Of a stretch of DNA of 64,000 nucleotides, positions 37,433 through 64,000 are shown piece after piece; the first letter of the stretch is position 1; each line of letters opens with the position of its first letter. Where the stretch lies: the sequence record LC788709.1; one strand, written 5' to 3'. The translations under genes were made by a program, and so were the position numbers. The DNA is from Escherichia coli phage Shin27. Below the pieces are notes generated by a model. The model did no database searches, had not been told where the DNA came from, and saw nothing but the letters and a program-made list of their open reading frames with translations.

Positions 37433-37463
37433 GCAGGGCATTTTCTATTTGCCCTGCGCTTTT
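37433..37463 (+). terminator. terminator-like hairpin inside the repeat region
   Basis: GCAGGGC-N11-GCCCTGC followed by GCTTTT. Confidence 0.4.
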
Positions 37464-38521: not shown

Positions 38522-38528
38522 GTAGAGT

Positions 38529-54653: not shown

Positions 54654-54925
54654 TATTCTTCTCCTTCACAATCGGAACAGTAGGAACCTTCTTCAGAACG
54701 ATCATGCTCTGGACACCACCAATTACAGTTACCACACTGGAAGACTTCAGCACTACTACAAGTTTCCATTAGAAGATCTTCAATTTCAGTATCTTCCATA
54801 TGTACGCCTTTCTCGGCTAACATTTCCTGAAATACTATAGCAGACTCGAATAAACTATTGCAACTGCCTTGCATATAGGAAACGATGAATATTCTAGCCA
54901 TTTCATTAATTTCTGCTTCTTTCAT
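54653..54925 (-). CDS. Cys-rich zinc-ribbon protein
   Basis: 90-aa ORF with CGNCNWWCPEH and CSDC. It is the first gene behind the promoter at 54956-54984. Confidence 0.55.
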   Translation of the reverse strand: MKEAEINEMARIFIVSYMQGSCNSLFESAIVFQEMLAEKGVHMEDTEIEDLLMETCSSAEVFQCGNCNWWCPEHDRSEEGSYCSDCEGEE

Positions 54926-54955
54926 TTCAAAGCCCTCTCATCAATTTATATAAAT

Positions 54956-54984
54956 ATTATATCAAAAGGAGAGGGTTTTAGCAA
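54956..54984 (-). promoter_or_regulatory. T5 early-type sigma70 promoter
   Basis: TTGCTA, 17 nt, TATAAT, then leader ATTTATATAAATTGATGAGAGGG. Confidence 0.7.
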
Positions 54985-55001
54985 ATGAATTATTTACGAA
55001 A

Positions 55002-55397
55002 TTAGTCGTAGCACCACCATAACCCACGCTTACGCAGATCATGATCGCGATTATAGTCGTAATTTTCTGGATCTTTCATCACACGATGAAGTTCGCGACG
55101 GTTTCCCTGACGAACCATTTTGTTAGAATGCCACTTAACATTCCTACTAACAGAATCCCACCAGTGCCCATCTTTCTTCTCGTTACGGATGATATTTTCC
55201 TGAATCTCCTTCTCAATTTCATCCCAAGTTTTAGCCCATGCTTCATTGGATCGAACTTGATAATACTTCCACTGCTTACCCTCCCTATCCGTGTAGGTAT
55301 ACGGAATACGGATATTAGTGCTATGAAAATTATAAGTAGAACGATGTGCATCACGCCAGTGACGATCACCAGATTGTTTACGATATGTACGGCTCAT
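55002..55397 (-). CDS. hypothetical basic protein
   Basis: 131-aa Arg/Lys/Trp-rich ORF. Confidence 0.5.
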   Translation of the reverse strand: MSRTYRKQSGDRHWRDAHRSTYNFHSTNIRIPYTYTDREGKQWKYYQVRSNEAWAKTWDEIEKEIQENIIRNEKKDGHWWDSVSRNVKWHSNKMVRQGNRRELHRVMKDPENYDYNRDHDLRKRGLWWCYD

Positions 55398-55455
55398 ATT
55401 ACCTCCATTAAGTCTTTTAAATTAACTTAATGTGGGCGAACTTCAAAATATAACA

Positions 55456-55641
55456 TCAGTAATCTCCGTTGTTGTTGTATACTACCCCACTGCTCGGGAG
55501 TTCTTCTACTATCACATCCTCGAATTCTATAGAACTTCTATGGTTTCTAGTCAGTTCGATTGCTTCTTCTGCAGTTTCTGCAACGACAATAGCTGTACCA
55601 CCTAACCACAGGCCGCTATAGTTCACTTTAAAAATTTTCAT
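55456..55641 (-). CDS. hypothetical protein
   Basis: 61-aa ORF. Confidence 0.4.
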   Translation of the reverse strand: MKIFKVNYSGLWLGGTAIVVAETAEEAIELTRNHRSSIEFEDVIVEELPSSGVVYNNNGDY

Positions 55642-55654
55642 TTCGAAAATCCTA

Positions 55655-55697
55655 CATACAAGAAAACCCCAGACTACCTATTCAATAGCTGGGGTTT
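55655..55697 (-). terminator. Rho-independent terminator
   Basis: AACCCCAG-N16-CTGGGGTT followed by TTCTTGT. Confidence 0.6.
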
Positions 55698-55705
55698 ATT
55701 ATTAA

Positions 55706-56005
55706 TTAGATAATTTCGACAATATCCTGAGTTACAAAACCGTCGAATTCATCAGAGATACCACCTGTAAAGGTGATGCCCATAATCATTGCATCCATCT
55801 TTTTAATCTCCGAGATTTTCATGCCTGCTTTACTATTCTTATAGTATTTGCGAGGATTCCCACACATCCAACAAGAACAGATGCAAGGAGTGGTAGTGAT
55901 AATGCCTAACCGCTTAGGACTTTCTTCATGTGGGAAGACTGTCCAATACTTTTTGCGATTGTTTTTCACACGTTGCCGGTGATGGCGTCTTAATGCTCGA
56001 TCCAC
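55706..56005 (-). CDS. hypothetical basic Cys-rich protein
   Basis: 99-aa ORF with RRHHRQRVKNNRKKY and CICSCWMCGNPRKY. A terminator follows. Confidence 0.5.
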   Translation of the reverse strand: MDRALRRHHRQRVKNNRKKYWTVFPHEESPKRLGIITTTPCICSCWMCGNPRKYYKNSKAGMKISEIKKMDAMIMGITFTGGISDEFDGFVTQDIVEII

Positions 56006-56086
56006 ACATTTCTCCTAAAACTTGGGAGATAAATGGAGTTTGCTCGACTACCTTGCGTAGCTGGGAGAAATCGTATCCAAACCCCA

Positions 56087-56455
56087 TTATATCGCCTGAG
56101 TAAATGTACGACTAATAACGTCGTTCTGTTGTTCACGCGTCAATGCGTTAAATCGAACAGCATAGCCAGAGACACGGATGGTCAACTGAGGATATTTTTC
56201 AGGATGTTTCTGTGCATCCAAAAGCTGATCACGGCTTAACACATTGACATTTAGGTGCTGACCACCCTCGACTTGAGGAACCACTTCCACATCTACAATG
56301 CGAAAGGCCTCAGGGTCAAAGTGAGGTGTGATACCTTCTAGATCTTCGACTAGAACTTTCTGTTTAAGTTCACCATCTTTAGAATATAGTTGAATGATCT
56401 GATTGTTATGAACAATGTTAATTACGCCAGACTTAAGACTTTGATATGCTTTCAT
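56087..56455 (-). CDS. grcA: autonomous glycyl-radical cofactor (GrcA/YfiD-like)
   Basis: 122-aa ORF. The C-terminal ~70 aa are near-identical in pattern to E. coli GrcA as recalled: [12 protein letters not shown]...[32 protein letters not shown]. Confidence 0.85.
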
Positions 56456-56820
56456 TAGATCTCCCTGATGTTAGAATTTGGCTCAGCTTTTTGTTAACCC
56501 AGAAGCAAGATAAAAACTGGAAGGCAGGCTTGCTTATTAAGTGAATACCCGATAATCGCTCGTAGTCCGGCTTGTGGATTGATAGTCCCATTCAGTTTAA
56601 TAAGCACAGGAGCTTTGATTTTAACGTTGCGATCTTCCAGGTCTGTTGCAACTACGTGATTGCTCACGCTAAGACAATGGCTATCTAAAGTCTTAGCTTC
56701 TACATTTATACTCCTGGATAGCATGGAGTTGCAGTCTACTTCCTGCTGTCACGCCCGGCCATTTATAGAATGTGGACTCTCTTCTCAGCAGGATCTGGTA
56801 CAATGACCTGATCCTCTGTT

Positions 56821-56896
56821 TGGTAGTTAGTAGTGGATTTGAACCACTGTAGTCGCTCCGTATGAAGGAGGTGCATAACCACTCTGCCAACTAACT
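56821..56896 (-). tRNA. tRNA, anticodon CAU (Met or Ile2 type)
   Basis: Acceptor AGTTAGT/ACTAACT, T-arm AGTGG-TTCAAAT-CCACT, anticodon loop TTCATAC, A73, CCA encoded. Confidence 0.7.
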
Positions 56897-56902
56897 ATAA
56901 TT

Positions 56903-56978
56903 TGGTACTCCGACTTGGGATCGAACCAAGATTTGACGATTATCGGTCGCCTGTTCTAACCGTTTGAACTATCGGAGC
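56903..56978 (-). tRNA. tRNA-Ile (GAU) with C at position 33
   Basis: Acceptor GCTCCGA/TCGGAGT, anticodon arm GGCGA-CCGATAA-TCGTC, T-arm CTTGG-TTCGATC-CCAAG, CCA encoded. Confidence 0.7.
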
Positions 56979-56979
56979 A

Positions 56980-57273
56980 TTACATCATTTCGTCTAAGTA
57001 AGAAGTATACTGGTATTTAGCTTCTCCAGTTTTATCTACTTCGACTTCTGTTCTAGGTACTTTTCGTACCAGACCGTGAATCATCTTGTACTGAATAGAC
57101 TTAGATGGTTCGTGATCTTTTGGAAATACTTGTTTAACCGTTACTACTTTGAAGCCTTCACGAGGTGTTAGCACAACAACTTGATCACCTTCTTTTATTT
57201 TCCAAGACTCAGGAAATTCGTAAGTGTAGCGTTGACCACCCGTTTGGAACACGACAGAAAGATAACGTTTCAT
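56980..57273 (-). CDS. hypothetical protein
   Basis: 97-aa ORF, the first gene behind the promoter at 57304-57332. tRNAs lie downstream. Confidence 0.55.
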   Translation of the reverse strand: MKRYLSVVFQTGGQRYTYEFPESWKIKEGDQVVVLTPREGFKVVTVKQVFPKDHEPSKSIQYKMIHGLVRKVPRTEVEVDKTGEAKYQYTSYLDEMM

Positions 57274-57303
57274 TTGGTTTCCCTCTCATTAATTTATGTA
57301 AAT

Positions 57304-57332
57304 ATTATAACAAGAAATAAGAGAGAAGGCAA
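57304..57332 (-). promoter_or_regulatory. T5 early-type sigma70 promoter
   Basis: TTGCCT, 17 nt, TATAAT, then leader ...AAATTAATGAGAGGGAA. Confidence 0.6.
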
Positions 57333-57347
57333 ATGAATTTTTAAATT

Positions 57348-57422
57348 TGGTGCTCCCACCAGGAATCGAACCCGGTTCAGATGCTTACAAGGCAACTGCA
57401 TCGCCAGCAATGCTTTAGGAGC
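57348..57422 (-). tRNA. tRNA-Thr (UGU)
   Basis: Acceptor GCTCCTA/TGGGAGC, loop CTTGTAA, T-arm CCGGG-TTCGATT-CCTGG, CCA encoded. Confidence 0.8.
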
Positions 57423-57589
57423 AATAAACCCGTTATTTCAACGGAATTTCTTTTTCAAATACAGGAGACTTATCAGACATTACTGTCATAGCCAACTGCT
57501 GTAGAAATTCGAATGAGAGTTTTAAACGTTCTTCACCCAACTCAACCTCAACACACTTCATTTGCTTATCAACCTTTAGCTTTAGATTA

Positions 57590-57811
57590 TCAGCCCTCTT
57601 CGGGTTCTCTTTGCTCAGCTATTGCTAGCCAGTCTGGTAAAAGAAACTTAGTACGAAATTCTTCATATGTTTCTTCTGGATGAAAGCTATAGCCTTGCTT
57701 TTCATCATTTAATAAAACCGAACCGTCTTCCTGTTCATAAGCTCGGTATGTTTCACCAATAATTAAAACTCGTCTATTGGGGTTTTTATTACGAAACTCA
57801 AAAACGTCCAT
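57590..57811 (-). CDS. hypothetical protein
   Basis: 73-aa ORF between tRNA genes. Confidence 0.5.
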   Translation of the reverse strand: MDVFEFRNKNPNRRVLIIGETYRAYEQEDGSVLLNDEKQGYSFHPEETYEEFRTKFLLPDWLAIAEQREPEEG

Positions 57812-57826
57812 AACGTTTCCTTAAGT

Positions 57827-57901
57827 TGGTGCGGGATACGAGAGTCGAACTCGTGTCTACTGGTTGGAAGCCAGTTATTCTAGCCACTGAACTAATCACG
57901 C
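57827..57901 (-). tRNA. tRNA-Gly (UCC)
   Basis: Acceptor GCGTGAT/ATCCCGC (one mismatch), arm ACTGG-CTTCCAA-CCAGT, T-arm ACGAG-TTCGACT-CTCGT, CCA encoded. Confidence 0.8.
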
Positions 57902-57907
57902 ATAAAT

Positions 57908-57983
57908 TGGCTGGAGAAGGAGGAATCGAACCTACCATTAACGGAGTCAAAGGCCGTTGTGCTAACCGTTACACTACTCTCCA
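57908..57983 (-). tRNA. tRNA-Gln (UUG)
   Basis: Acceptor TGGAGAG/TTCTCCA with U1-A72, G73, loop CTTTGAC, T-loop TTCGATT, CCA encoded. Confidence 0.8.
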
Positions 57984-57989
57984 AGTATT

Positions 57990-58065
57990 TGGCTGGGATG
58001 CCACGGATCGAACGTGGAACCTTCGGAGTCAGAGGCCGACGATCTGCCAATTGATCTACATCCCA
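57990..58065 (-). tRNA. tRNA-Gln (CUG)
   Basis: Acceptor TGGGATG/CATCCCA with U1-A72, G73, loop CTCTGAC, T-arm CCACG-TTCGATC-CGTGG, CCA encoded. Confidence 0.8.
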
Positions 58066-58072
58066 ATAATTT

Positions 58073-58273
58073 TTATTCTACAGGAACCGTGGCAATTGGA
58101 TCTGGTTCTTCTAGACGTTTACCATTATGGTCAACACGAATAATACCACAACCTTCACAGATTACAACAGCACCATAGCCTTCTTTAACTTCGGCTTCTG
58201 TAATCAGACCAGAAAGATCACCAGTATCTTTGCCCCACATATCGATAGAGCATTCTTTGCAGAAATCAGCCAT
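58073..58273 (-). CDS. zinc-ribbon protein
   Basis: 66-aa ORF with CKEC...CEGC, located between tRNA genes. Confidence 0.5.
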   Translation of the reverse strand: MADFCKECSIDMWGKDTGDLSGLITEAEVKEGYGAVVICEGCGIIRVDHNGKRLEEPDPIATVPVE

Positions 58274-58297
58274 ATTTTAGTTCCTGTATAAGTTAAT

Positions 58298-58372
58298 TGG
58301 TGCATCCTCAGGGAATCGAACCCCGATCGTAAAGTTCGTAGCTTTACATTCTTTCCGTTGAAATAAGGACGC
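58298..58372 (-). tRNA. tRNA-Arg (ACG)
   Basis: Acceptor GCGTCCT/AGGATGC, arm TAAAG-CTACGAA-CTTTA, T-arm CGGGG-TTCGATT-CCCTG, CCA encoded. Confidence 0.8.
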
Positions 58373-58377
58373 ATATT

Positions 58378-58454
58378 TGGGGTGGCTAGTGGAATTCGAA
58401 TCCACATAGGCCTGATTCACAATCAGGATCATTAACCAATTATGATATAGCCAC
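58378..58454 (-). tRNA. tRNA-His (GUG)
   Basis: Acceptor GTGGCTA/TAGCCAC, C73, arm CCTGA-TTGTGAA-TCAGG, T-arm GTGGA-TTCGAAT-TCCAC, CCA encoded. Confidence 0.8.
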
Positions 58455-58699
58455 AATTGAATACTATTAGGGGATGATCAGTCCTCCATTTGGCCGTCTA
58501 AGGTACCAAAGTTAGTCATTCTGCGCACAGGTTTTTCTCCTGATTCTTTATTGCGAATGCTCTCTAATAATACTCAATTGTGGCGGCTCTCCGAAACTCT
58601 TCTACTCTAGCCTTAGCAGCTTACTCCCGAACGCATGTCGGGAAAGTCTTACTAAGAACATCAAATAGCACCGTTACACTTTGAGCCATTAATGTATCA

Positions 58700-58830
58700 A
58701 GAAGCAGAAGGACTTGAACCTTCACGAGATAGACCATTTATCTCAGCCTCGTTTTCGGGTATCTTATGAGGAGTGGATGTTCCCCTTACGCCCTTTAGGA
58801 AGCCCCGTCTACCGATTCCGGCATACTTCA
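58700..58830 (-). ncRNA. oversized (~131 nt) tRNA-like element
   Basis: Canonical T-arm GAAGG-TTCAAGT-CCTTC is followed by TGCTTCT, which pairs 6/7 with TGAAGTA at the far end. A D-like CCG-GAATCGGTAGA-CGG is present. No CCA and no ORF. It lies 5 nt from tRNA-Ser. Confidence 0.3.
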
Positions 58831-58835
58831 AGATT

Positions 58836-58925
58836 TGGCAGAAGATAATGGAGTCGAACCATCACCGTATCACTACAGCGGGCCGGTTTTCAAGACCGGT
58901 TACGTACCACTACGTCCTATCTTCT
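58836..58925 (-). tRNA. tRNA-Ser (UGA), long variable arm
   Basis: 90 nt. Acceptor AGAAGAT/ATCTTCT, G73, arm CCGGT-CTTGAAA-ACCGG, T-arm GATGG-TTCGACT-CCATT, CCA encoded. Confidence 0.8.
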
Positions 58926-59152
58926 AGTATTTGTTCTACTTCTTTTCGAAGATCTTCTGGATTATCATGATAGGTTGTTTGCCATACATAAATAACTCCA
59001 GTATCACATGCTTTATCAAATATTTCTCGCTCAGGAAGTTTCATGCCCATTGCGTACTTGATATGAAACTCTAAAGCTTGCTTACTAGGGAATGTATGAC
59101 GCAAGAAAAACTTATCATTAACTAAATCCAACATCATAATCTTGACTTTCAT
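58910..59152 (-). CDS. hypothetical protein
   Basis: 80-aa ORF. Its last 16 nt overlap the 5' end of tRNA-Ser(UGA). Confidence 0.5.
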   Translation of the reverse strand: MKVKIMMLDLVNDKFFLRHTFPSKQALEFHIKYAMGMKLPEREIFDKACDTGVIYVWQTTYHDNPEDLRKEVEQILEDRT

Positions 59153-59173
59153 TTATATTCCCTATTAGTTGTT

Positions 59174-59266
59174 TGGCGGAAGAAGAGAGATTCGAACTCT
59201 CAAGCCTGCTTTAACAAGTCAGCCACTTTCCAAGCGGTTTTCGTCACCTAATCGATTTGCTCTTCC
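59174..59266 (-). tRNA. tRNA-Ser (GGA), long variable arm
   Basis: 93 nt. Acceptor GGAAGAG/TTCTTCC, G73, loop TTGGAAA, T-arm GAGAG-TTCGAAT-CTCTC, CCA encoded. The D-region register is uncertain. Confidence 0.6.
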
Positions 59267-59424
59267 GTAGATCTCAGGATTAAATCATAAACTTCATTAG
59301 CAGATACTGGAAGTATGAGATTATACATCTTTTGGTCATACCTCTGACCATACTCTATAAACACATACTCTTTAGTTAATGTATTAACAGCTAACCAGAT
59401 ATCAGTTATAGGAGTTTTCATCAT
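59248..59424 (-). CDS. possible small protein (58 aa)
   Basis: MMKTPITDIWLAVNTLTKEY... It is below the track cutoff. Its last 19 nt overlap the 5' end of tRNA-Ser(GGA). Confidence 0.3.
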   Translation of the reverse strand: MMKTPITDIWLAVNTLTKEYVFIEYGQRYDQKMYNLILPVSANEVYDLILRSTEEQID

Positions 59425-59440
59425 GAGTTAATCCAATGTT

Positions 59441-59521
59441 TGGTAGGGATGGAGGGACTCGAACCCACACCCGAAGACTAGAACCTAAATCTAGCGCGTC
59501 TGCCAATTTCGCCACATCCCC
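59441..59521 (-). tRNA. tRNA-Leu (UAG)
   Basis: 81 nt. Acceptor GGGGATG/CATCCCT, D region GCG-AAATTGGCAGA-CGC, arm CTAGA-TTTAGGT-TCTAG, T-loop TTCGAGT, CCA encoded. Confidence 0.75.
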
Positions 59522-59528
59522 ATTTTAT

Positions 59529-59747
59529 TTAGTTAGAAATAAATAGTAACCCTGCAACAATGGAACCTATGCCACTGAATACCATTATCAGCATAGCTTC
59601 TAAGCTGATAAAGCGGACGTTATATGGAGCGCCCCAAGAATAATCAGTAAAGAAAGTTTTCTTTTCTTTAGCTAAATCTTTAATAGTTCTAAAATAGATA
59701 GCTAGTGCTAAAGCTACAAGAACTACAGAGGCTGCTAAGAATACCAT
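59529..59747 (-). CDS. small membrane protein
   Basis: 72-aa ORF with two TM segments. Confidence 0.5.
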   Translation of the reverse strand: MVFLAASVVLVALALAIYFRTIKDLAKEKKTFFTDYSWGAPYNVRFISLEAMLIMVFSGIGSIVAGLLFISN

Positions 59748-59766
59748 ATTATTTCCTTAATTTGTT

Positions 59767-59842
59767 TGGTGGAGTCACTCAGAATTGAACTGAGTTCCAC
59801 TGCTTGCAAGGCAGTAAGTTTAACCAAATAACCTATGACCCC
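59767..59842 (-). tRNA. tRNA-Ala (UGC)
   Basis: Acceptor GGGGTCA/TGACTCC with G3-U70, A73, arm ACTGC-CTTGCAA-GCAGT, T-arm CTCAG-TTCAATT-CTGAG, CCA encoded. Confidence 0.8.
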
Positions 59843-59847
59843 GAATT

Positions 59848-59926
59848 TGGTGGAGAATAAGAGATTCGAACTCTTCTGATATCCTCGGTGCAAGCGAGGT
59901 GTCCACTCCAAGCAGACCCATTCCCC
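59848..59926 (-). tRNA. atypical tRNA, anticodon read as UGC (Ala-like)
   Basis: 79 nt. Acceptor GGGGAAT/ATTCTCC with G3-U70, arm CCTCG-CTTGCAC-CGAGG, T-arm AAGAG-TTCGAAT-CTCTT, CCA encoded. It has G at position 8, an enlarged D loop and a longer variable region. Confidence 0.5.
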
Positions 59927-59936
59927 AAAATCTTTA

Positions 59937-60152
59937 AGTTTACTAAGGCTATTAGCTCGGTGTGCGTATTACCCTCAGACATTAGCCAGTAGAGGATAAC
60001 CGCTCTTCACAAACCCGATACACTATTCAGTTGCCGCTGAATCTAGTGGACTAATCTAGAACTTATTGCAAAGTATCCCCCGCCATTAAGGGTCTACTTG
60101 CAATTGTGCTTTTTGGCAGCCAGTCCTAGGTCGAGCTAATACCTTAGTGAAC
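59937..60152 (-). ncRNA. structured leader/stable-RNA candidate downstream of an early promoter
   Basis: A 22-bp closing helix with one bulge forms between 59937-59959 and 60130-60152 and encloses ~170 nt containing at least three hairpins. No ORF. It lies between the promoter at 60189-60217 and two tRNAs. Confidence 0.3.
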
Positions 60153-60188
60153 TTTGATGAGGATTTCTCCTCATCAATTTATATAAAT

Positions 60189-60217
60189 ATTATAACAAGA
60201 AATTAAGCATCAAGCAA
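60189..60217 (-). promoter_or_regulatory. T5 early-type sigma70 promoter driving a non-coding leader plus tRNAs
   Basis: TTGCTT, 17 nt, TATAAT. The downstream leader starts with a perfect 9-bp hairpin, TGATGAGGA-GAAA-TCCTCATCA. Confidence 0.6.
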
Positions 60218-60569
60218 GTACATTTTTAGCGATTTCTTGTATTTCCTTAACGTCACTAACGAAAAGGTAATCAGAGCTTCCAGAGTGCATACTCTGCATA
60301 ACCACACCATCCTCTGGTGCATCTTCTTTCAAAGTAATACCTAACCAGAACTCGGCAAAACTAGGTGTTACCTCACCTTGACTTGCCTTGAATACATCGG
60401 CTTCTGTGATCTCCTGACCAGTAGAGAGTCCCATGTACGGTACGTTCAGATCAATATCTTTGTAAAACTCAGCTAGATCTTGTTCGAAGTCCCAACCTTT
60501 AGAGATAGCGAACTCCATTGTTACATGACCGAAATAGCCTTGAACCTTGCTTGATAATTGCATTTGCAA
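60210..60569 (-). CDS. hypothetical acidic protein
   Basis: 119-aa ORF between tRNA-Val and the promoter at 60189-60217. Confidence 0.55.
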   Translation of the reverse strand: MQMQLSSKVQGYFGHVTMEFAISKGWDFEQDLAEFYKDIDLNVPYMGLSTGQEITEADVFKASQGEVTPSFAEFWLGITLKEDAPEDGVVMQSMHSGSSDYLFVSDVKEIQEIAKNVLA

Positions 60570-60588
60570 TTCCTTATTTTGAGTTAAT

Positions 60589-60662
60589 TGGTACTCGGTG
60601 ATAGAATCGAACTATCGCAACCGCCGTGTAAAGACGGGGTTCTCCCATTAAACTAACCGAGC
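60589..60662 (-). tRNA. tRNA-Val (UAC)
   Basis: Acceptor GCTCGGT/ACCGAGT, arm CCGTC-TTTACAC-GGCGG, T-arm GATAG-TTCGATT-CTATC, CCA encoded. Confidence 0.8.
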
Positions 60663-60666
60663 AATT

Positions 60667-60744
60667 TGGTGGATTGCCTGGGATTCGAACCCAGAACTGA
60701 CGGATTAAAGGTCCGCTACTCTTATCCGGTTGAGCTAGCAATCC
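60667..60744 (-). tRNA. tRNA-Lys (UUU) with C at position 33
   Basis: Perfect acceptor GGATTGC/GCAATCC, arm GCGGA-CCTTTAA-TCCGT, T-arm CTGGG-TTCGAAT-CCCAG, CCA encoded. Confidence 0.75.
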
Positions 60745-61208
60745 AATTTTTCTACTAATAATTTAAAAGCATCTAGTACAGGTACTTCAAACCATTCCCC
60801 GGATACTCTGTAGTCTTTGAGAAGATTATGTAACTCTTTCTCCGTACGTCTTTTATCTGACGAAAATCTGAAATGGTGTAGCTTGTAGTCTCTATTAGGT
60901 GAATAGGTTTGATAACTTGCTAACCTCTCATTTACATCTATAGTCATACCTATTTTATACATGCCTGGCCATGCGGGATTACCGATTACATATACAAAAC
61001 CTTCCGTTATAGGTATTTTATGTTCTCTTTTGTATTTTAAGAGATTTAAAGCTGCCATTCGATAACAGAATTTAAATTCTGAAGTTTTTAACTTACCCTC
61101 TTTACCAGAAATTTCATTATATTTGCTCATATAAGCTCTTATAAGCTTATCATCTATAATAAAATTATCAGGAAGGTTTAAGGCAGCTAAAACTTTATTA
61201 ATTAGCAT
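60735..61208 (-). CDS. T5orf172/GIY-YIG-superfamily domain protein (homing-endonuclease-like)
   Basis: 157-aa ORF. GFVYVIGNP...YKIGMT..VNERLASYQT...EKELHNLL...GEWFEV matches the T5orf172 (MUG113-like) pattern. Confidence 0.7.
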   Translation of the reverse strand: MLINKVLAALNLPDNFIIDDKLIRAYMSKYNEISGKEGKLKTSEFKFCYRMAALNLLKYKREHKIPITEGFVYVIGNPAWPGMYKIGMTIDVNERLASYQTYSPNRDYKLHHFRFSSDKRRTEKELHNLLKDYRVSGEWFEVPVLDAFKLLVEKLDC

Positions 61209-61362
61209 AAACTTCCTTAATAGAGTAGACTTTCAAGTAAGGATGATTAATACCAAATTCCGCCATTACTTCATTTTCATCTTTACCATAATGGGCTAGT
61301 GGATACTTCTTACGATCTTTACTAGAACGTAAATCACTTACTTTTAAACGAAATAATTTCAT
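61198..61362 (-). CDS. possible small protein (54 aa)
   Basis: MKLFRLKVSDLRSSKDRKKY... Its 3' end overlaps the ATG of the T5orf172 gene. It is below the track cutoff. Confidence 0.3.
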   Translation of the reverse strand: MKLFRLKVSDLRSSKDRKKYPLAHYGKDENEVMAEFGINHPYLKVYSIKEVYAN

Positions 61363-61383
61363 TTCGAAATCCTTCTATTAAAT

Positions 61384-61461
61384 TGGAAGCGGGTGCAGGA
61401 ATCGAACCTACCTCTTTCTAGCTTATGAGACTAGCGATCTCTACCAGAGATCTAACCCGCA
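61384..61461 (-). tRNA. tRNA-Met type (CAU) with 1-72 mismatch
   Basis: Acceptor TGCGGGT/ACCCGCT, arm CTAGT-CTCATAA-GCTAG, T-arm GTAGG-TTCGATT-CCTGC. The 3' end reads TCCA. Confidence 0.65.
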
Positions 61462-61467
61462 ATTGTT

Positions 61468-61545
61468 TGGTCTCCGTGGGAGGATTTGAACCCCCGACCC
61501 TATCGCCCCAAACGAAACGCTCTGGCCAAACTGAGCTACACGGAG
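61468..61545 (-). tRNA. tRNA-Pro (UGG)
   Basis: Acceptor CTCCGTG/CACGGAG with C1-G72, loop TTTGGGG (G37), T-arm GGGGG-TTCAAAT-CCTCC, CCA encoded. Confidence 0.8.
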
Positions 61546-61577
61546 AATATTCTTTGTTAACTCACTTTATAAAATAT

Positions 61578-61606
61578 ATTATACAGAGAATTAAGCTAAA
61601 TAGCAA
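61578..61606 (-). promoter_or_regulatory. T5 early-type sigma70 promoter directly upstream of tRNA-Pro/tRNA-Met
   Basis: TTGCTA, 17 nt, TATAAT. The tRNA-Pro 5' end lies ~26 nt downstream of the predicted start. Confidence 0.65.
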
Positions 61607-61623
61607 CTACATTTTTTAATAAA

Positions 61624-61745
61624 TTTACTTATTGCGTAGGCCACCTGGAGGGTTCAAGCCCCACGGCTGACAAAGAAGTTTGCGAGACTTCTCTTAAACG
61701 CCAGAATAGACCCGCCGATCTATCGGAACCTACTCAATAAGTAAA
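61624..61745. ncRNA. structured ORF-free element closed by a 17-bp helix
   Basis: TTTACTTATTGCGTAGG (61624-61640) pairs 16/17 with CCTACTCAATAAGTAAA (61729-61745). Inside are a 6-bp stem with a 7-nt loop (AGAAGT-TTGCGAG-ACTTCT) and a GGTTCAAGCC T-loop-like motif. Confidence 0.3.
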
Positions 61746-61860
61746 CTTTCGTTTACCTACACCTACCTGGTCGGGAGGATTTTCAGCGACTAGAACCGGC
61801 CGGAAACTCATCGCCTTGTTTATCTAGGAGTCCGTTCTCTAGGAAGCAGAAACCTAAATT

Positions 61861-61934
61861 TGGTGCGGTCGGAGGGAATCGAACCCTCAACTTCTGGTTG
61901 GCAACCAAAAATTATACCTTTTAACTACGAACGC
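61861..61934 (-). tRNA. tRNA-Gly (GCC)
   Basis: Acceptor GCGTTCG/CGACCGC (one mismatch), arm TTTGG-TTGCCAA-CCAGA, T-arm GAGGG-TTCGATT-CCCTC, CCA encoded. Confidence 0.75.
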
Positions 61935-61943
61935 ATAATAAGT

Positions 61944-62065
61944 CAATCTAGGCAGGACTTGAACCTGCTATCACTTGTGCGGATTTACGAGAACCATTCT
62001 TTCACTCGAATCGAACGAGCTTCTACCCTCGGCAAGCTGGTGTCCCCTCTCCACCACGCTAGAAT
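61944..62065 (-). ncRNA. oversized (~122 nt) tRNA-like element
   Basis: Canonical T-arm GCAGG-TTCAAGT-CCTGC is followed by CTAGATT, which pairs 6/7 with ATTCTAG at the far end. Internal hairpins are TGGTG-N9-CACCA and CTCG-TTCGATT-CGAG. No CCA and no credible ORF. Confidence 0.3.
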
Positions 62066-62147
62066 GATAATTAGTGCCTGCTCCTTTGAATCAAGAAGTC
62101 CACCCCGGACTTTGGGTCTTTGCAGTACATCACGCTGCTCTGATGTT

Positions 62148-62224
62148 TGGTACACCCACTAGGACTTGAACCTAGAACCTACCGCTTAAGAGGCGGTAGC
62201 TCTAACCAATTGAGCTATGGATGT
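62148..62224 (-). tRNA. tRNA-Lys (CUU)
   Basis: Acceptor ACATCCA/TGGGTGT, arm ACCGC-CTCTTAA-GCGGT, T-arm CTAGG-TTCAAGT-CCTAG, CCA encoded. Confidence 0.8.
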
Positions 62225-62230
62225 ATAATT

Positions 62231-62305
62231 TGGCGGTACTAAGGGTAATCGAAACCCTACCTCTCCCGTGACAGGGGAGTATCCTAACCGTTAGACTATA
62301 GTACC
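62231..62305 (-). tRNA. tRNA-Asp (GUC)
   Basis: Perfect acceptor GGTACTA/TAGTACC, G73, arm CTCCC-CTGTCAC-GGGAG, T-arm AGGGT-TTCGATT-ACCCT, CCA encoded. Confidence 0.85.
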
Positions 62306-62877
62306 TTTAACTTTTTAAGTTCTTTAGGATTGCCTCCTAAAGAAGTGTATCTTTTACGCAACCCATTATCTGAATAACTTAACTTTCTCCCTGCACCTGA
62401 CCAGCCTAGCTCTCTTACTGTAACCTCGATTATTTCTTTAGTTATAGAGATATCTTTTGGTTTATGTGAAGAGCACTCCTGACATTTTTCAGCTTTTAAA
62501 GAAATAGCTTTACCACAATCCTTACAACAATTATCATGGTTTAGTTTACTAAATCCTTTATCTTTTAAAGTCTTTTCTAGATGCTGCTCTTTTGTGAGCA
62601 CTTGTAAGTTATTAAGACCCCAATAAGTAATGTCTGTGTTAATATGGTCAACTTCTAGTTCAGAGTCTAGACTTGGTAATTTCTTAAATGCACATGCTAA
62701 AATCCTATGTACACCGGTATTTCTCTGTTGACCATTTTTATGGAGACGTATAGATAAGTATCCGTAATTACTGGTTATTTGGGTTAGTATTTTGTTTGAT
62801 TTGATACTAAATACTAACCCATCCAAACTTACTAAGTACTCCTCAAACCCTGGAATGGGTAAGGATATTCCGTGCAT
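62296..62877 (-). CDS. HNH homing endonuclease
   Basis: 193-aa ORF with an HNH region (HRILACAF...EVDHINTDITYWGLNNLQVLTKEQHLEKT) and a Cys4 region (CCKDCGK...CQEC). Confidence 0.75.
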   Translation of the reverse strand: MHGISLPIPGFEEYLVSLDGLVFSIKSNKILTQITSNYGYLSIRLHKNGQQRNTGVHRILACAFKKLPSLDSELEVDHINTDITYWGLNNLQVLTKEQHLEKTLKDKGFSKLNHDNCCKDCGKAISLKAEKCQECSSHKPKDISITKEIIEVTVRELGWSGAGRKLSYSDNGLRKRYTSLGGNPKELKKLKVL

Positions 62878-62880
62878 AAT

Positions 62881-63066
62881 TTACTCAGTTTTGAGTTTTT
62901 CGATAGCTTCCTCAACCTCTTTTAGAGCTTCACGACGCTCTACTTGACCTTGAAGTTCTTCAAGAAGTTCAGCTTTCAGAGCCTTAATAATATTACCACG
63001 AACCTTAATATTATTAATCAGATTATCACGATCAGCTTCTAGTCGAGCAATTGCACGAGTTGTCAT
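62881..63066 (-). CDS. small coiled-coil protein
   Basis: 61-aa ORF, all helical with heptad character. Confidence 0.45.
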   Translation of the reverse strand: MTTRAIARLEADRDNLINNIKVRGNIIKALKAELLEELQGQVERREALKEVEEAIEKLKTE

Positions 63067-63169
63067 ATCTATTTCCTCAGTTGTTAATGAAAAATGGTAT
63101 CTGTGACTGAATTCGATATCAGCAATGATAGCTGGTTGGCTACCGGTTTACTTAACTCTACACAGAATA

Positions 63170-63252
63170 TGGCGGGCCGTGTAGGATTCGAACCTACGTT
63201 GTCTTTCGACATGGATTAACAGTCCACCGCCAAACCGCTTGGCTAACGACCC
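63170..63252 (-). tRNA. tRNA with Asn anticodon (GUU) and a 13-nt hairpin variable arm
   Basis: 83 nt. Acceptor GGGTCGT/ACGGCCC, D-stem GCCA/TGGC, arm GTGGA-CTGTTAA-TCCAT, variable GTC-GAAA-GAC-AAC, T-arm GTAGG-TTCGAAT-CCTAC, CCA encoded. Confidence 0.7.
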
Positions 63253-63259
63253 TAAAATT

Positions 63260-63335
63260 TGGACGACCGCATGAGATTCGAACTCACATAAGGAGGTTTT
63301 GCAGGCCTCCGCCTAAGCCATTCAGCCAACGGTCG
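63260..63335 (-). tRNA. tRNA-Cys (GCA)
   Basis: Acceptor CGACCGT/GCGGTCG, U73, loop CTGCAAA, T-arm GTGAG-TTCGAAT-CTCAT, CCA encoded. Confidence 0.8.
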
Positions 63336-63513
63336 ATTTATCTTGCTTTTCGAGATTAGTAAACTCTAGATCTTTAGAATGTCCTATAGATCTAGCATAA
63401 TAGCCATCTCCAGCATCGTAGCCTGATTTACCGCACTCACACATCTTAAACTCTCTATAATGAGTGAAAATATGTTCAGAACCACAACACTTAAATTTAA
63501 CTAACATTTTCAT
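63322..63513 (-). CDS. zinc-ribbon protein
   Basis: 63-aa ORF with CCGSEH...CECG. Its last 14 nt overlap the 5' end of tRNA-Cys. Confidence 0.5.
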   Translation of the reverse strand: MKMLVKFKCCGSEHIFTHYREFKMCECGKSGYDAGDGYYARSIGHSKDLEFTNLEKQDKSTVG

Positions 63514-63752
63514 TTAACACGCTCCGGTAAATCTTCGAGTTTATATTGAGTAGCCACATTAGCAGCATCTAGTAACAAACCCATATGTTTAAGAATCCTA
63601 GTGATAGCCTCGCCTTCTGCTTCTTCTACAAAAGTGCGTAGTTGAATGAAGTCAATACCCCCATCCATACCAGAGAAAATGTTTAGTAAGCGAAGCATTA
63701 CCAGCTTACGTTCTTTCAATTCTTGTTCTGTCATGTTGCTTCTCCAGTTCAA
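63510..63752 (-). CDS. hypothetical protein
   Basis: 80-aa ORF, the first gene behind the promoter at 63764-63792. Confidence 0.5.
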   Translation of the reverse strand: MNWRSNMTEQELKERKLVMLRLLNIFSGMDGGIDFIQLRTFVEEAEGEAITRILKHMGLLLDAANVATQYKLEDLPERVK

Positions 63753-63763
63753 TTTATGTAATA

Positions 63764-63792
63764 ATTATACAGAACTTTAAGCGGTTAAGCAA
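63764..63792 (-). promoter_or_regulatory. T5 early-type sigma70 promoter
   Basis: TTGCTT, 17 nt, TATAAT. It overlaps the stop of the truncated upstream CDS. Confidence 0.6.
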
Positions 63793-64000
63793 CTACATTT
63801 TTTAAGAATTTGATGCCTTTCTTTTTCTTCTTATATTTCCACGTTAACGGGTTCTGTCGATTATGAACGCTTGAGATCTTTGTCTCGTCAAAGTTCTTCA
63901 AAACCATGTAATCACAGGCCAACTGTTCTAGTGGGATGTGATCTCCATCAAAAGCATAAACATAAGGCTGTTGACTAGCACGATAATGATAGACTTTGTT
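63785..64000 (-). CDS. 3' end of a CDS truncated by the window edge
   Basis: An open frame runs from the window end to the TAA at 63785-63787 (...SSVHNRQNPLTWKYKKKKKGIKFLKNVVA*). It is not in the track because no start lies in the window. Confidence 0.45.
   Translation of the reverse strand, partial: NKVYHYRASQQPYVYAFDGDHIPLEQLACDYMVLKNFDETKISSVHNRQNPLTWKYKKKKKGIKFLKNVVA

What the first reader, a model, noticed from the sequence alone, without database searches (positions are those of the whole stretch)
56821..63335. 22-gene tRNA array interleaved with mini-ORFs and endonuclease genes may act as a replacement-parts set
Seen: 22 minus-strand tRNAs cover Met/Ile2(CAU) x2, Ile, Thr, Gly x2, Gln x2, Arg, His, Ser x2, Leu, Ala x2, Val, Lys x2, Pro, Asp, Asn and Cys. 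They come in groups of 1-3 separated by 60-190-aa ORFs, each group with its own strong promoter nearby. Both isoacceptors are present for Gln and Lys, so simple codon-usage tuning seems an incomplete explanation. Established, as far as I recall from recent work on T5: a phage tRNA-Lys can neutralise the PARIS defence, and phage tRNAs are proposed to replace host tRNAs cut by anticodon nucleases. Inference: the array is a counter-defence resource, and the small ORFs between tRNAs may be further anti-defence factors.
Basis: partly seen in the sequence, partly recalled or inferred. Interest (0 to 1): 0.6.

Follow-up and report, generated by a model that had tools for sequence, protein, structure and literature searches.

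The report
T5-like phage tRNA gene array

Summary
The tRNA array is real. The 22nd, Ser(GGA) at 59174-59266, is a degenerate tRNA-like gene.

The segment is 100% identical to E. coli phage Wa28 (Epseptimavirus) and syntenic with the phage T5 tRNA-rich region. The array runs past the window end, giving 28 tRNAs in Wa28.

Corrections to the observation:
- There are four strong promoters, not one per group. They are homologues of T5 P11, P13b, P13a and P14b.
- Four spacers hold six conserved tRNA-like stable-RNA genes, not ORFs.

The counter-defence reading is already shown experimentally for orthologous T5/SP15 tRNAs: Lys(UUU), Thr(UGU) and Asn(GUU) against PARIS, Thr(UGU) against P2-Old, Lys against PrrC, and Tyr against retron-Eco7. 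It is also shown for ORFs just beyond this window.

My tests here:
- Codon usage explains only the U34/NNA subset.
- The window's Lys(UUU) carries two of T5's three AriB-resistance substitutions, plus an unusual C33.
- Anticodon stems are not more diverged from the host than other stems.
- Each of the two homing-endonuclease genes is strictly linked to its own divergent tRNA allele.

Verdict: already known, low interest.

The parts
56821..56896 (-). tRNA-Met(CAU), elongator type
   Evidence: ARAGORN; Rfam 51.5 bits; 100% identical to T5 tRNAM
56903..56978 (-). tRNA-Ile(GAU) with C33 in place of the universal U33
   Evidence: the C33 allele is in 6 of 22 T5-like loci
56980..57273 (-). ORF of 97 aa, T5.058 homologue, function unknown
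   Evidence: phrog_4760; 84% identical to T5.058
57304..57332 (-). strong sigma-70 promoter (TTGCCT-17-TATAAT, extended TG), homologue of T5 P11
57348..57422 (-). tRNA-Thr(UGU). [quoted passage not shown]
   Evidence: determinants from PMC12409363 and PMC12445682
57433..57561 (-). ORF of 42 aa, T5.059 homologue
57590..57811 (-). ORF of 73 aa, acidic, T5.060 homologue
57827..57901 (-). tRNA-Gly(UCC)
57908..57983 (-). tRNA-Gln(UUG)
   Evidence: 100% identical to the SP15 allele, 62% to T5
57990..58065 (-). tRNA-Gln(CUG)
58073..58273 (-). ORF of 66 aa, acidic, with four Cys (CxxC...CxxC), T5.062 homologue
   Evidence: its distant homologues are not next to tRNAs
58298..58372 (-). tRNA-Arg(ACG); absent at this position in T5
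58378..58454 (-). tRNA-His(GUG)
   Evidence: 100% identical to T5
58456..58576 (-). homologue of T5 stable RNA 'RNAIII'
   Evidence: T5 annotation; blastn map; alignment A1
58581..58687 (-). homologue of T5 stable RNA 'RNAI'; ends in GCCGCCA like a tRNA 3' end
   Evidence: 5 pairs with compensatory changes
58688..58832 (-). homologue of T5 tRNA-like stable RNA 'RNA1'. It has acceptor, D and T arms plus an expanded central arm.
   Evidence: 8 pairs with compensatory changes
58836..58925 (-). tRNA-Ser(UGA); anticodon stem-loop identical to host serT
58910..59152 (-). ORF of 80 aa, unknown, no T5 homologue in the region
   Evidence: phrog_32148
59174..59266 (-). degenerate tRNA-Ser(GGA)-like gene
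59248..59424 (-). ORF of 58 aa, unknown; its stop overlaps the Ser(GGA)-like gene
59441..59521 (-). tRNA-Leu(UAG); the most host-like tRNA, 80% identical to leuW
59529..59747 (-). ORF of 72 aa, hydrophobic (GRAVY 1.06), probably a membrane protein
59767..59842 (-). tRNA-Ala(UGC), copy 1
   Evidence: only 67% identical to copy 2
59848..59926 (-). tRNA-Ala(UGC), copy 2
   Evidence: 92% identical to the SP15 allele
59942..60142 (-). homologue of T5 stable RNA 'RNA2H' (approximate ends)
60189..60217 (-). strong promoter (TTGCTT-17-TATAAT), homologue of T5 P13b
60210..60563 (-). ORF of 117 aa, very acidic (pI 4.2), found only in T5-like phages
60589..60662 (-). tRNA-Val(UAC)
60667..60744 (-). tRNA-Lys(UUU), in the position of the T5 anti-PARIS tRNA. 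It has C33, C16 and C41, but keeps U39.
   Evidence: PMC12409363
60735..61208 (-). free-standing homing-endonuclease-like gene (T5orf172/MUG113, GIY-YIG-like). It overlaps the first 10 nt of tRNA-Lys(UUU).
   Evidence: 47% identical to T5.069; sporadic distribution and allele linkage
61198..61362 (-). ORF of 54 aa, T5.065 homologue
61384..61461 (-). initiator-type tRNA-fMet(CAU), with a 1:72 mismatch
   Evidence: 100% identical to T5 tRNAfM
61468..61545 (-). tRNA-Pro(UGG)
61578..61606 (-). strong promoter (TTGCTA-17-TATAAT), homologue of T5 P13a
61633..61735 (-). homologue of T5 stable RNA 'RNAIV'; cloverleaf-shaped consensus fold
61861..61934 (-). tRNA-Gly(GCC); absent in T5
61941..62066 (-). 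homologue of T5 tRNA-like stable RNA 'RNA2'
62148..62224 (-). tRNA-Lys(CUU); no counterpart in E. coli K-12
   Evidence: (69.6 bits)
62231..62305 (-). tRNA-Asp(GUC); this allele is linked to the HNH gene
62296..62877 (-). free-standing HNH homing endonuclease gene (NUMOD4 + HNH_3). It overlaps the first 10 nt of tRNA-Asp.
   Evidence: 43% identical to T5 F-TflII; present at this site in 2 of 23 loci
62881..63066 (-). ORF of 61 aa, DUF7337, T5.068 homologue
63170..63252 (-). tRNA-Asn(GUU) with a long variable arm; positions 36-41 are as in the host
63260..63335 (-). tRNA-Cys(GCA)
63322..63513 (-). ORF of 63 aa, DUF7695, four Cys
63510..63734 (-). ORF of 74 aa, unknown; first gene after the promoter
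63764..63792 (-). strong promoter (TTGCTT-17-TATAAT), homologue of T5 P14b

Best explanation
The segment is about three-quarters of the tRNA-rich region, also called the 'anti-defence island', of a T5-like phage (Demerecviridae, Epseptimavirus).

Contents, all on the minus strand:
- 21 canonical tRNA genes and one degenerate tRNA-Ser(GGA)-like gene;
- six tRNA-like stable-RNA genes;
- twelve small ORFs and two free-standing homing-endonuclease genes.

Expression. Four strong early sigma-70 promoters sit in this segment. Inferred: they drive long mixed precursors, from which host processing enzymes release the tRNAs. All the tRNA genes encode their CCA end.

Function. The phage-made tRNAs keep phage translation running in two ways.
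- Shown here: the U34 tRNAs match the A-ending codons that this 40% G+C phage uses more than its host does.
- Shown experimentally for the T5/SP15 orthologues, inferred for this phage: they replace host tRNAs destroyed by defence nucleases. PARIS AriB cuts Lys(UUU), Thr(UGU) and Asn(GUU). P2 Old cuts Thr(UGU). PrrC cuts Lys(UUU). Retron-Eco7 PtuAB cuts Tyr, whose phage gene lies just beyond the window.

Endonuclease genes. They are selfish homing elements inserted immediately upstream of a tRNA gene. Each travels with its own divergent tRNA allele. Inferred: that allele is immune to its own enzyme, and the elements move tRNA cassettes between co-infecting T5-like phages.
For: Identity and synteny:
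- 100% identity over 7.1 kb to phage Wa28, and 645 related phage records.
- Same gene order as the curated T5 record, including promoters and stable RNAs, and as SP15.
- The same order holds in 25 T5-like IMG/VR loci.

Promoters: exactly four strict sites on the minus strand, against 0.34 expected.

Dispensability: viable T5 deletions 29191-32442 and 30661-38625 correspond to window positions of about 57830-61400 and from about 58850 onward. Both deletions make T5 PARIS-sensitive (PMC11464382; map).

Position: the window's Lys(UUU), Val, fMet and Pro are syntenic with the T5 fragment that rescues infection from PARIS.

Nuclease determinants (site definitions; window bases):
- Thr(UGU) has the same anticodon stem-loop as the T5 tRNA used for rescue. 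It has G39 and no CNG motifs.
- Lys(UUU) has C41 and C16, two of T5's three AriB-resistance substitutions.
- None of about five Lys(UUU) alleles in T5-like phages keeps the host U39-C40-A41.

Codon usage:
- CTA, TTA, ACA, GTA, GGA, CAA, CCA and GCA are 1.5-4.6 times enriched and are matched by phage tRNAs.
- GGC, CAG, AGC, ATC, TGC, GAC, CAC and AAC are depleted, yet phage tRNAs for them exist. Overall p=0.21.

Redundancy: there are two Ala(UGC) genes only 67% identical to each other.

Homing endonucleases: domains; sporadic presence always abutting a tRNA gene; perfect linkage to a tRNA allele, 4/4 against 0/19 and 2/2 against 0/21.
Against: - No experiment exists on this phage or on its specific alleles.
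- The window's Lys(UUU) keeps U39. In E. coli tRNA-Lys, the U39A change is the one that abolishes AriB cleavage.
- Asn(GUU) positions 36-41 and the whole Ser(UGA) anticodon stem-loop are identical to the host.
- Anticodon stems are no more diverged from the host (52.5% identity) than acceptor stems (55.7%) or T stems (51%), p about 0.75. Differences at nuclease sites may therefore be ordinary old divergence rather than selected escape.
- The HEG-allele linkage gives a non-defence reason for allele replacement.
- In the SP15 screen only fragments F6-F8 rescued infection from retrons, and they correspond to DNA beyond this window.
- Polycistronic transcription and processing are inferred from the layout and from T5/T4 knowledge. 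They are not shown here.
Confidence: 0.75

Rival explanations
1. Codon-usage compensation only. The array exists solely to supply tRNAs for codons that the A/T-rich phage uses more than its host, with no role against defence systems.
For: - The phage ORFs in the window are enriched 1.5-4.6 times in CTA, TTA, ACA, GTA, GGA, CAA, CCA and GCA. Each has a Watson-Crick-matching phage tRNA.
- AAG is enriched 1.3 times, and the host has no Lys(CUU).
Against: - Overall there is no significant association (Mann-Whitney p=0.21).
- Phage tRNAs exist for codons depleted in the phage: GGC 0.51, CAG 0.65, AGC 0.42, ATC 0.66, GAC 0.74 (RSCU ratios, phage over host).
- There are two divergent Ala(UGC) genes with the same anticodon.
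- Orthologous T5 tRNAs demonstrably rescue infection from PARIS, Eco7 and PrrC.
Confidence: 0.08
2. General maintenance of the tRNA pool. T5-like phages destroy host DNA and shut off host transcription, so the phage carries a near-complete tRNA set simply to replace tRNAs lost by normal turnover during infection, independently of dedicated defence nucleases.
For: - The full array covers all 20 amino acids (29 anticodons in Wa28), which looks like a complete replacement set rather than a targeted one.
- Divergence from the host is uniform over the molecule.
- In Azam et al., tRNA-Tyr works by abundance from a strong promoter, and host tRNA-Tyr under that promoter also rescues.
Against: - T5 deletion mutants lacking 11-17 tRNAs grow normally on defence-free E. 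coli, so general supply is not limiting in the laboratory.
- Resistance of T5 Lys(UUU) to AriB depends on its sequence.
Confidence: 0.1
3. Selfish accretion. The array's composition and allele diversity are mainly by-products of homing endonucleases that target tRNA genes and drag flanking tRNA alleles along. The tRNAs themselves would be nearly neutral passengers, some of them decaying.
For: - There is perfect linkage between each endonuclease gene and a divergent tRNA allele.
- Endonuclease genes always abut a tRNA gene and are sporadically distributed.
- T4 SegB recognises the T-arm motif and drives inheritance of its tRNA region (PMC2330249).
- Signs of decay: the degenerate Ser(GGA) gene, T5 Gln2 annotated as a pseudogene, and sporadic U33C changes in the Arg and Leu alleles.
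Against: - Only two of the 22 tRNA genes in the window abut an endonuclease gene.
- Gene order is conserved across 25 loci, and many tRNAs are 96-100% identical between T5 and this phage. That indicates purifying selection.
- Functional rescue by the orthologues is published.
Confidence: 0.05

Closest known systems
Phage T5 tRNA gene region (GenBank AY543070, positions about 28.0-37.3 kb; Ksenzenko/Shlyapnikov laboratory annotation)
   Same: - Same strand and the same order: Met-Ile-Thr-Gly-Gln-Gln-His-[RNAIII/RNAI/RNA1]-Ser-Ser-Leu-Ala-[RNA2H]-Val-Lys-fMet-Pro-[RNAIV/RNA2]-Asp-Asn-Cys.
- Homologous promoters P11, P13b, P13a and P14b.
- Homologous small ORFs T5.058, .059, .060, .062, .065 and .068.
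- Met, His and fMet are 100% identical; Thr and Val are 96% identical.
   Different: - The window adds Arg(ACG), a second Ala(UGC), Gly(GCC) and Lys(CUU).
- Ten tRNAs are replaced by alleles only 58-73% identical, including Lys(UUU), Asn, Asp, both Gln, Ile, Leu and Pro.
- Endonuclease genes sit at different sites: before Asp and Lys, instead of before Gln, Ser and Ile2.
- Four small ORFs have no T5 counterpart.
SP15/T5 'tRNA-rich region' or 'anti-defence island' (Azam et al., PMC11555353 and bioRxiv 10.1101/2023.03.15.532788)
   Same: - It is the same genomic region in a sister genus.
- The window's Thr and Asn are 100% identical, and its Gln tRNAs 99-100% identical, to SP15's.
   Different: - The experimentally active parts (tRNA-Tyr, ORF72/73, Rad/ORF75) map beyond the window end.
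- Wa28 has a 98-aa ORF, pnuC and nadR where SP15 has Rad.
- The SP15 Lys(UUU) that defeats PrrC170 is a different allele, 76% identical.
Phage T4 tRNA cluster with SegB and the stable RNAs 'species 1 and 2'
   Same: - tRNA genes are co-transcribed with small stable RNAs of unknown function.
- A free-standing GIY-YIG homing endonuclease gene is embedded in the cluster and drives inheritance of the surrounding tRNA genes (PMC2330249).
- That endonuclease can also amplify anti-defence tRNA-Tyr (PMC13096335).
   Different: - T4 has 8 tRNAs rather than about 28.
- T4 is an unrelated phage family, with no sequence homology tested or expected.
- The endonucleases here are of HNH/NUMOD4 and T5orf172 type.
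Nuclease-insensitive tRNA sets of mycobacteriophage cluster C1 (van den Berg et al., PMC10264068)
   Same: A large phage tRNA array, proposed to resist host anticodon nucleases through changes in the anticodon loop.
   Different: - Here most anticodon loops equal the host's. The differences are mainly in stems and are spread over the whole molecule.
- Here Ser(UGA) and Ser(GGA) are present, whereas the mycobacteriophages avoid them.

Membership tests
T5-like tRNA-rich region (Markadamsvirinae) | Lies in a Markadamsvirinae genome, with all genes co-oriented in the early region | tested here: met
   100% identical to Wa28 (Epseptimavirus); hundreds of T5-like records match
T5-like tRNA-rich region (Markadamsvirinae) | Conserved order of tRNA genes shared with T5 and SP15 | tested here: met
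   the same order in T5, SP15 and 25 IMG/VR loci, with presence/absence variation
T5-like tRNA-rich region (Markadamsvirinae) | Interspersed stable RNA genes (RNA1, RNAI, RNAIII, RNA2H, RNAIV, RNA2) | tested here: met
   blastn at 76-93% identity to the annotated T5 features; conserved folds with compensatory pairs
T5-like tRNA-rich region (Markadamsvirinae) | A few strong early promoters (P11, P13b, P13a, P14b) | tested here: met
   four strict promoters at homologous positions
T5-like tRNA-rich region (Markadamsvirinae) | Dispensable in laboratory hosts; its loss sensitises the phage to PARIS and retron-Eco7 | not testable with these tools
   Shown for T5 and SP15 only
AriB (PARIS)-resistant phage tRNA set | tRNA-Lys(UUU) carrying U39A, A41C and U16C relative to the host U36AAUC|A41 site | tested here: inconclusive
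   The window allele has C41 and C16 but keeps U39; it also has C33 (site definition)
AriB (PARIS)-resistant phage tRNA set | tRNA-Thr(UGU) altered at 39-41 | tested here: met
   G39; the anticodon stem-loop is identical to the T5 tRNA used in rescue experiments
AriB (PARIS)-resistant phage tRNA set | tRNA-Asn(GUU) altered at 39-41 | tested here: not met
   The window has U39-C40-C41, as in host asnT; T5 has G39-U40-U41
Nuclease-escape tRNAs (van den Berg model) | Divergence from the host is concentrated in the anticodon stem-loop | tested here: not met
   Anticodon stem 52.5% identity, acceptor stem 55.7%, T stem 51%; Wilcoxon p about 0.75
Codon-compensation tRNA set | Phage tRNAs match codons enriched in the phage relative to the host | tested here: inconclusive
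   True for the U34/NNA subset and false for most G34/C34 tRNAs; overall p=0.21
Free-standing homing endonuclease genes | Intact nuclease domain | tested here: met
   NUMOD4 + HNH_3 in one gene; T5orf172/MUG113 with GIY...YIG-like, Arg and Glu motifs in the other
Free-standing homing endonuclease genes | Sporadic presence or absence at one site among close relatives, with co-converted flanks | tested here: met
   HNH is before Asp in 2 of 23 loci and T5orf172 before Lys in 4 of 23. Each is perfectly linked to a divergent tRNA allele.
Free-standing homing endonuclease genes | Site-specific cleavage of the endonuclease-less allele, and preferential inheritance in mixed infection | not testable with these tools
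   Known for T5 F-TflI/II/IV (Akulenko 2004, cited in PMC2330249) and for T4 SegB
Canonical tRNA (Rfam RF00005 / ARAGORN) | Cloverleaf scoring above threshold | tested here: met
   21 genes pass. Ser(GGA) at 59174-59266 fails the default thresholds.

The most novel reading that the evidence does not exclude
Two parts of the array are not explained by published work.

(1) Six tRNA-shaped stable RNAs are conserved between T5 and this phage at 76-93% identity. For RNA2 and RNAIV (89-93%) that is higher than for most of the tRNAs. One of them ends in GCCGCCA. They could be decoys or competitive inhibitors of tRNA-targeting immune nucleases or sensors, rather than processing by-products.

(2) The endonuclease-linked Lys(UUU) allele, and an Ile(GAU) allele, carry C33 instead of the universal U33. 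In Lys, this base lies next to the bond that PrrC cuts. C33 could be a nuclease-escape change that is spread as a mobile endonuclease-plus-tRNA cassette.
Probability: 0.12. Interest if true: 0.6.

Novelty: already known. Interest (0 to 1): 0.2.

Why it matters
tRNA-cleaving immunity (PARIS, PrrC, retron-Eco7/Septu, P2 Old, Schlafen, Cas12a3) and phage-encoded replacement tRNAs are an active field, and T5-like phages are its model system. This window adds no new principle, but it does give concrete, testable allele-level predictions for an Epseptimavirus:
- A Lys(UUU) allele with only part of the T5 resistance signature, plus C33.
- A host-like Asn(GUU).
- No Rad annotated at the syntenic site.

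It also suggests that homing endonucleases, not only defence nucleases, shape which tRNA alleles a phage carries. That matters for predicting the host range of therapeutic T5-like phages.

Tried and rejected
- The generic promoter/terminator scan gave promoter counts at chance. I replaced it with a strict scan.
- A permissive Rfam search of 54000-64000 found no family for the four non-coding spacers. Only chance-level plastid hits on the antisense strand of tRNAs appeared. The stable RNAs are known only from the T5 GenBank annotation.
- The anticodon-stem-focused divergence test was negative. I therefore do not use 'differs from host at the cleavage site' as evidence of selection.
- I tried to infer the PARIS phenotype of the window's Lys allele from the BASEL phages named in PMC12409363. 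IrmaTschudi carries the window allele with one mismatch (C33 kept), but it is Bas28, not Bas33. Bas34 (SelmaRatti) carries yet another Lys allele and only 10 tRNAs. No inference was possible.
- A homology search for the acidic 117-aa ORF returned only unnamed proteins, nearly all from T5-like phages or Salmonella assemblies.
- The 66-aa Zn-ribbon ORF has distant homologues that mostly lack neighbouring tRNAs. A tRNA-specific role is therefore not supported.
- I looked for a Rad homologue after the last tRNA of Wa28 and found none annotated there.
- tRNAs as integration sites was rejected. This is a virulent phage and the segment has no integrase.

Full report
**1. Observation**

ARAGORN with default settings finds 21 tRNA genes in the whole 64-kb window. 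All are on the minus strand, between 56821 and 63335.

Rfam's tRNA model matches 20 of them at 38-70 bits, against a gathering score of 29. Ser(UGA) is a tRNA-clan hit.

The 22nd gene, Ser(GGA), appears only at ARAGORN's relaxed threshold. Its Rfam score is 23.8 bits, E=0.43. Alignment with relatives shows that the element really spans 59174-59266. It has a perfect 7-bp acceptor stem and a T arm, but a weak D arm and a mismatched anticodon stem. The T5 orthologue is annotated as unable to act as a suppressor. I therefore count 21 sound tRNAs and one degenerate tRNA-like gene. All of them encode their CCA end.

**2. What the segment is**

The 7.1 kb around the array is 100% identical to E. coli phage Wa28 (Demerecviridae, Markadamsvirinae, Epseptimavirus), and 645 phage records match it.

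- In Wa28 the array continues just past the window end with Phe, Trp, Glu, Tyr, Leu, Met and Ser. That makes 28 annotated tRNAs, plus an Arg further on.
- The curated T5 record (AY543070) shows the same order of tRNAs on the same strand. It also annotates promoters P11, P13b, P13a and P14b, and the 'stable RNAs with unknown functions' RNAIII, RNAI, RNA1, RNA2H, RNAIV and RNA2.
- SP15 has the same order, as do 25 T5-like IMG/VR loci. tRNAs such as Arg(ACG), Lys(CUU), Gly(GCC), Gly(UCC), Val and the Ser genes are present in some loci and absent in others.

**3. Promoters**

The generic scan is at chance, with 19 sites against 18.3 expected. A strict scan (TTGnnn, 17 nt, TATAAT) gives exactly four sites on the minus strand, at 63792, 61606, 60217 and 57332. 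Shuffles give 0.34, and the plus strand has none. Each site follows an A-rich stretch.

By blastn the four sites are the homologues of T5 P14b, P13a, P13b and P11. Thirteen tRNA groups therefore share four promoters. The layout implies long mixed transcripts that are processed into tRNAs; this step is inferred.

**4. Spacers**

Four spacers contain no credible ORF. blastn maps them onto the T5 stable RNAs:

| Window | T5 feature | Identity |
|---|---|---|
| 58836-58455 | RNA1 + RNAI + RNAIII | 78% |
| 60239-59839 | P13b + RNA2H + tRNA-Ala | 76% |
| 61749-61562 | RNAIV + P13a | 93% |
| 62069-61942 | RNA2 | 89% |

Consensus folds over 15-25 T5-like sequences are tRNA-shaped.
- RNA1 has acceptor, D and T arms, a variable arm and an expanded central arm. 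Eight of its pairs show compensatory changes.
- RNAI ends in GCCGCCA and has five compensatory pairs.
- RNA2 has an acceptor-like stem and a GGTTCGAGTCC T arm.
- RNAIV is a four-way junction.

Rfam has no family for any of them. They are known from T5, but their function is not.

**5. ORFs and endonucleases**

- 62296-62877 encodes a NUMOD4 + HNH_3 protein. It is 43% identical to T5 F-TflII.
- 60735-61208 encodes a T5orf172/MUG113 (GIY-YIG-like) protein. It is 47% identical to T5.069.
- Each of these two ORFs overlaps the first 10 nt of a tRNA gene, Asp and Lys(UUU) respectively.
- Eight in-window ORFs (counting the two endonuclease genes) have T5 homologues in the region, and six do not.
- None has a known function. 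Several are small and acidic.
- The 117-aa acidic protein has unnamed relatives only, nearly all from T5-like phages or Salmonella assemblies.

Across 23 T5-like loci the endonuclease genes are sporadic, and they always lie within about 30 nt upstream of a tRNA gene. They are also perfectly linked to a tRNA allele.
- The window-type Lys(UUU) allele (at least 99% identity) occurs only with the T5orf172 gene: 4 of 4 loci. Nineteen loci with other alleles (73-78% identity) lack that gene.
- The window-type Asp allele (100%) occurs only with the HNH gene: 2 of 2 loci. Twenty-one loci with the other allele (65-68%) lack it.

This is the signature of free-standing homing endonucleases that co-convert their flanks. 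It has been shown for T4 SegB, which recognises the T-arm motif of tRNA genes (PMC2330249). It has also been reported for T5 F-TflI/II/IV (Akulenko 2004, cited there).

**6. Function: published evidence on the orthologues**

- T5 mutants with viable deletions 29191-32442 or 30661-38625 become PARIS-sensitive. T5 tRNA-Lys(UUU) restores infection and is not cut by AriB (PMC11464382). By the map these deletions correspond to the window from about 57830 onward.
- AriB cuts host Lys(UUU), Thr(UGU) and Asn(GUU) between positions 40 and 41, within U36AAUC|A41. T5 Lys carries U39A, A41C and U16C. The three T5 tRNAs together are necessary and sufficient for rescue (PMC12409363).
- Retron-Eco7 PtuAB depletes tRNA-Tyr, and the T5/SP15 tRNA-Tyr rescues infection. 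SP15 tRNA-Lys rescues from PrrC170 (PMC11555353).
- In the preprint version the region is called an anti-defence island. ORF75 (Rad, 189 aa, Toprim) and ORF72/73 in it block retrons.
- P2 Old cuts thrU at paired CNG motifs in the anticodon stem, and phage Thr(UGU) rescues cells (PMC12445682).
- A homing endonuclease in the T4/T6 tRNA cluster amplifies tRNA-Tyr to beat Septu (PMC13096335).

**7. Function: tests on this window**

I fetched the E. coli K-12 isoacceptors and compared them with the window tRNAs.

- Overall identity to the host is 54-80%.
- Thr(UGU) has G39 and no CNG motif. Its anticodon stem-loop is identical to T5's.
- Lys(UUU) has C41 and C16 but keeps U39. It also has C33 in place of the universal U33.
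- Asn(GUU) has the host sequence at positions 36-41, and Ser(UGA) has the host anticodon stem-loop.
- Among T5-like loci there are about five Lys(UUU) alleles, and none has the host U39-C40-A41. Bas34 carries a further allele.
- Anticodon stems are no more diverged from the host than acceptor or T stems: 52.5%, 55.7% and 51%. These differences are therefore not by themselves evidence of selection for escape.

Codon usage was compared between 88 window ORFs and 48 E. coli ORFs. A-ending codons are enriched in the phage and are matched by U34 tRNAs. However, tRNAs also exist for codons that the phage uses less than the host does (GGC, CAG, AGC, ATC, GAC and others). Overall the association is not significant, p=0.21.

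The two Ala(UGC) genes are only 67% identical to each other. Lys(CUU), however, fits codon tuning well: AAG is enriched and the host has no such tRNA.

**8. What lies outside the window**

tRNA-Tyr and the homologues of SP15 ORF71-73 lie beyond position 64000. Wa28 has a 98-aa ORF, pnuC and nadR where T5 and SP15 have Rad.

**9. Mechanism and rivals**

The best-supported reading is a dual-purpose tRNA supply unit. It tunes translation to A/T-rich codons, and it replaces host tRNAs destroyed by defence nucleases. Selfish homing endonucleases move tRNA cassettes within it.

The rivals are codon compensation alone, general tRNA-pool maintenance after host shut-off, and selfish accretion. Each explains part of the data. 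Each is contradicted, as a sole explanation, by the published rescue experiments or by the strong conservation of order and sequence.

**10. Novelty**

This is an already known kind of region, in an already deposited and annotated genome. Three points remain open:
- the function of the six tRNA-like RNAs;
- the meaning of C33 in the Lys(UUU) and Ile(GAU) alleles. The same Lys context with U33 occurs in eight unrelated large-phage contigs, while with C33 it occurs only in T5-like contigs;
- the roles of the in-window small ORFs.

Noticed in passing
58456-58832, about 59942-60142, 61633-61735 and 61941-62066 (minus strand): Six tRNA-shaped stable-RNA genes are homologous to T5 RNAIII, RNAI, RNA1, RNA2H, RNAIV and RNA2. 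They are conserved across T5-like phages, with compensatory base pairs. None is in Rfam, and their function is unknown.
   Followed up: partly
60735-61208 with tRNA-Lys 60667-60744; 62296-62877 with tRNA-Asp 62231-62305: Each homing-endonuclease gene overlaps the 5' end of a tRNA gene. Each is perfectly linked to a divergent allele of that tRNA across 23 T5-like loci (4/4 against 0/19, and 2/2 against 0/21). They behave as mobile endonuclease-plus-tRNA cassettes.
   Followed up: yes
tRNA-Lys(UUU) 60667-60744 and tRNA-Ile(GAU) 56903-56978: Both have C33 instead of the nearly universal U33. Single Arg(ACG) and Leu(UAG) alleles in other T5-like loci also have C33. The same Lys anticodon-arm context occurs with U33 in eight unrelated large-phage contigs, and with C33 only in T5-like contigs.
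   Followed up: partly
63170-63252: tRNA-Asn(GUU) is 83 nt long, with a stem-loop of about 13 nt in the variable region. That is unusual for an Asn tRNA. It is identical to the SP15 allele.
   Followed up: no
L020:76-152 (IMGVR_UViG_2974654585): One T5-like phage carries a tRNA with a CUA (amber-reading) anticodon. It differs from the common T5-like tRNA-Trp(CCA) by a single base, so it is a natural suppressor-type variant.
   Followed up: partly
56087-56455 (minus strand): A 122-aa ORF just downstream of the array ends in an RVSGY glycyl-radical motif. Its homologues are T5.056 and the protein annotated 'formate acetyltransferase' in IrmaTschudi, and the SelmaRatti homologue has a Pfam Gly_radical hit. 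It is a GrcA-like spare part for pyruvate formate-lyase.
   Followed up: no
window 1-2500: The best matches are Salmonella phages at 98-99% identity (a tail-fibre region), and Wa28 is not among the top hits. The window genome is therefore a mosaic relative of Wa28, not Wa28 itself.
   Followed up: partly
L057 (Wa28 65400-70500), beyond the window: T5 and SP15 encode Rad/T5.076 (Toprim, anti-retron) after the last tRNA-Ser. At that place Wa28 and IrmaTschudi have a 98-aa ORF followed by a nicotinamide riboside/mononucleotide transporter gene (pnuC); Wa28 also has nadR.
   Followed up: partly
60154-60177: A perfect 10-bp hairpin lies about 12 nt downstream of the -10 hexamer of the promoter at 60217, at the start of the RNA2H-like region. 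It may be a 5' stabilising or processing element.
   Followed up: no
59441-59521: tRNA-Leu(UAG) is far more host-like than the other tRNAs. It is 80% identical to E. coli leuW, with the same anticodon loop, which suggests a more recent capture from a host.
   Followed up: no
L044-L055: Distant homologues (44-65% identical) of the 66-aa Zn-ribbon ORF (58073-58273) mostly occur in metagenomic viral contigs with no tRNA genes within 5 kb (10 of 12 loci). This ORF is therefore not intrinsically tied to tRNA arrays.
   Followed up: partly
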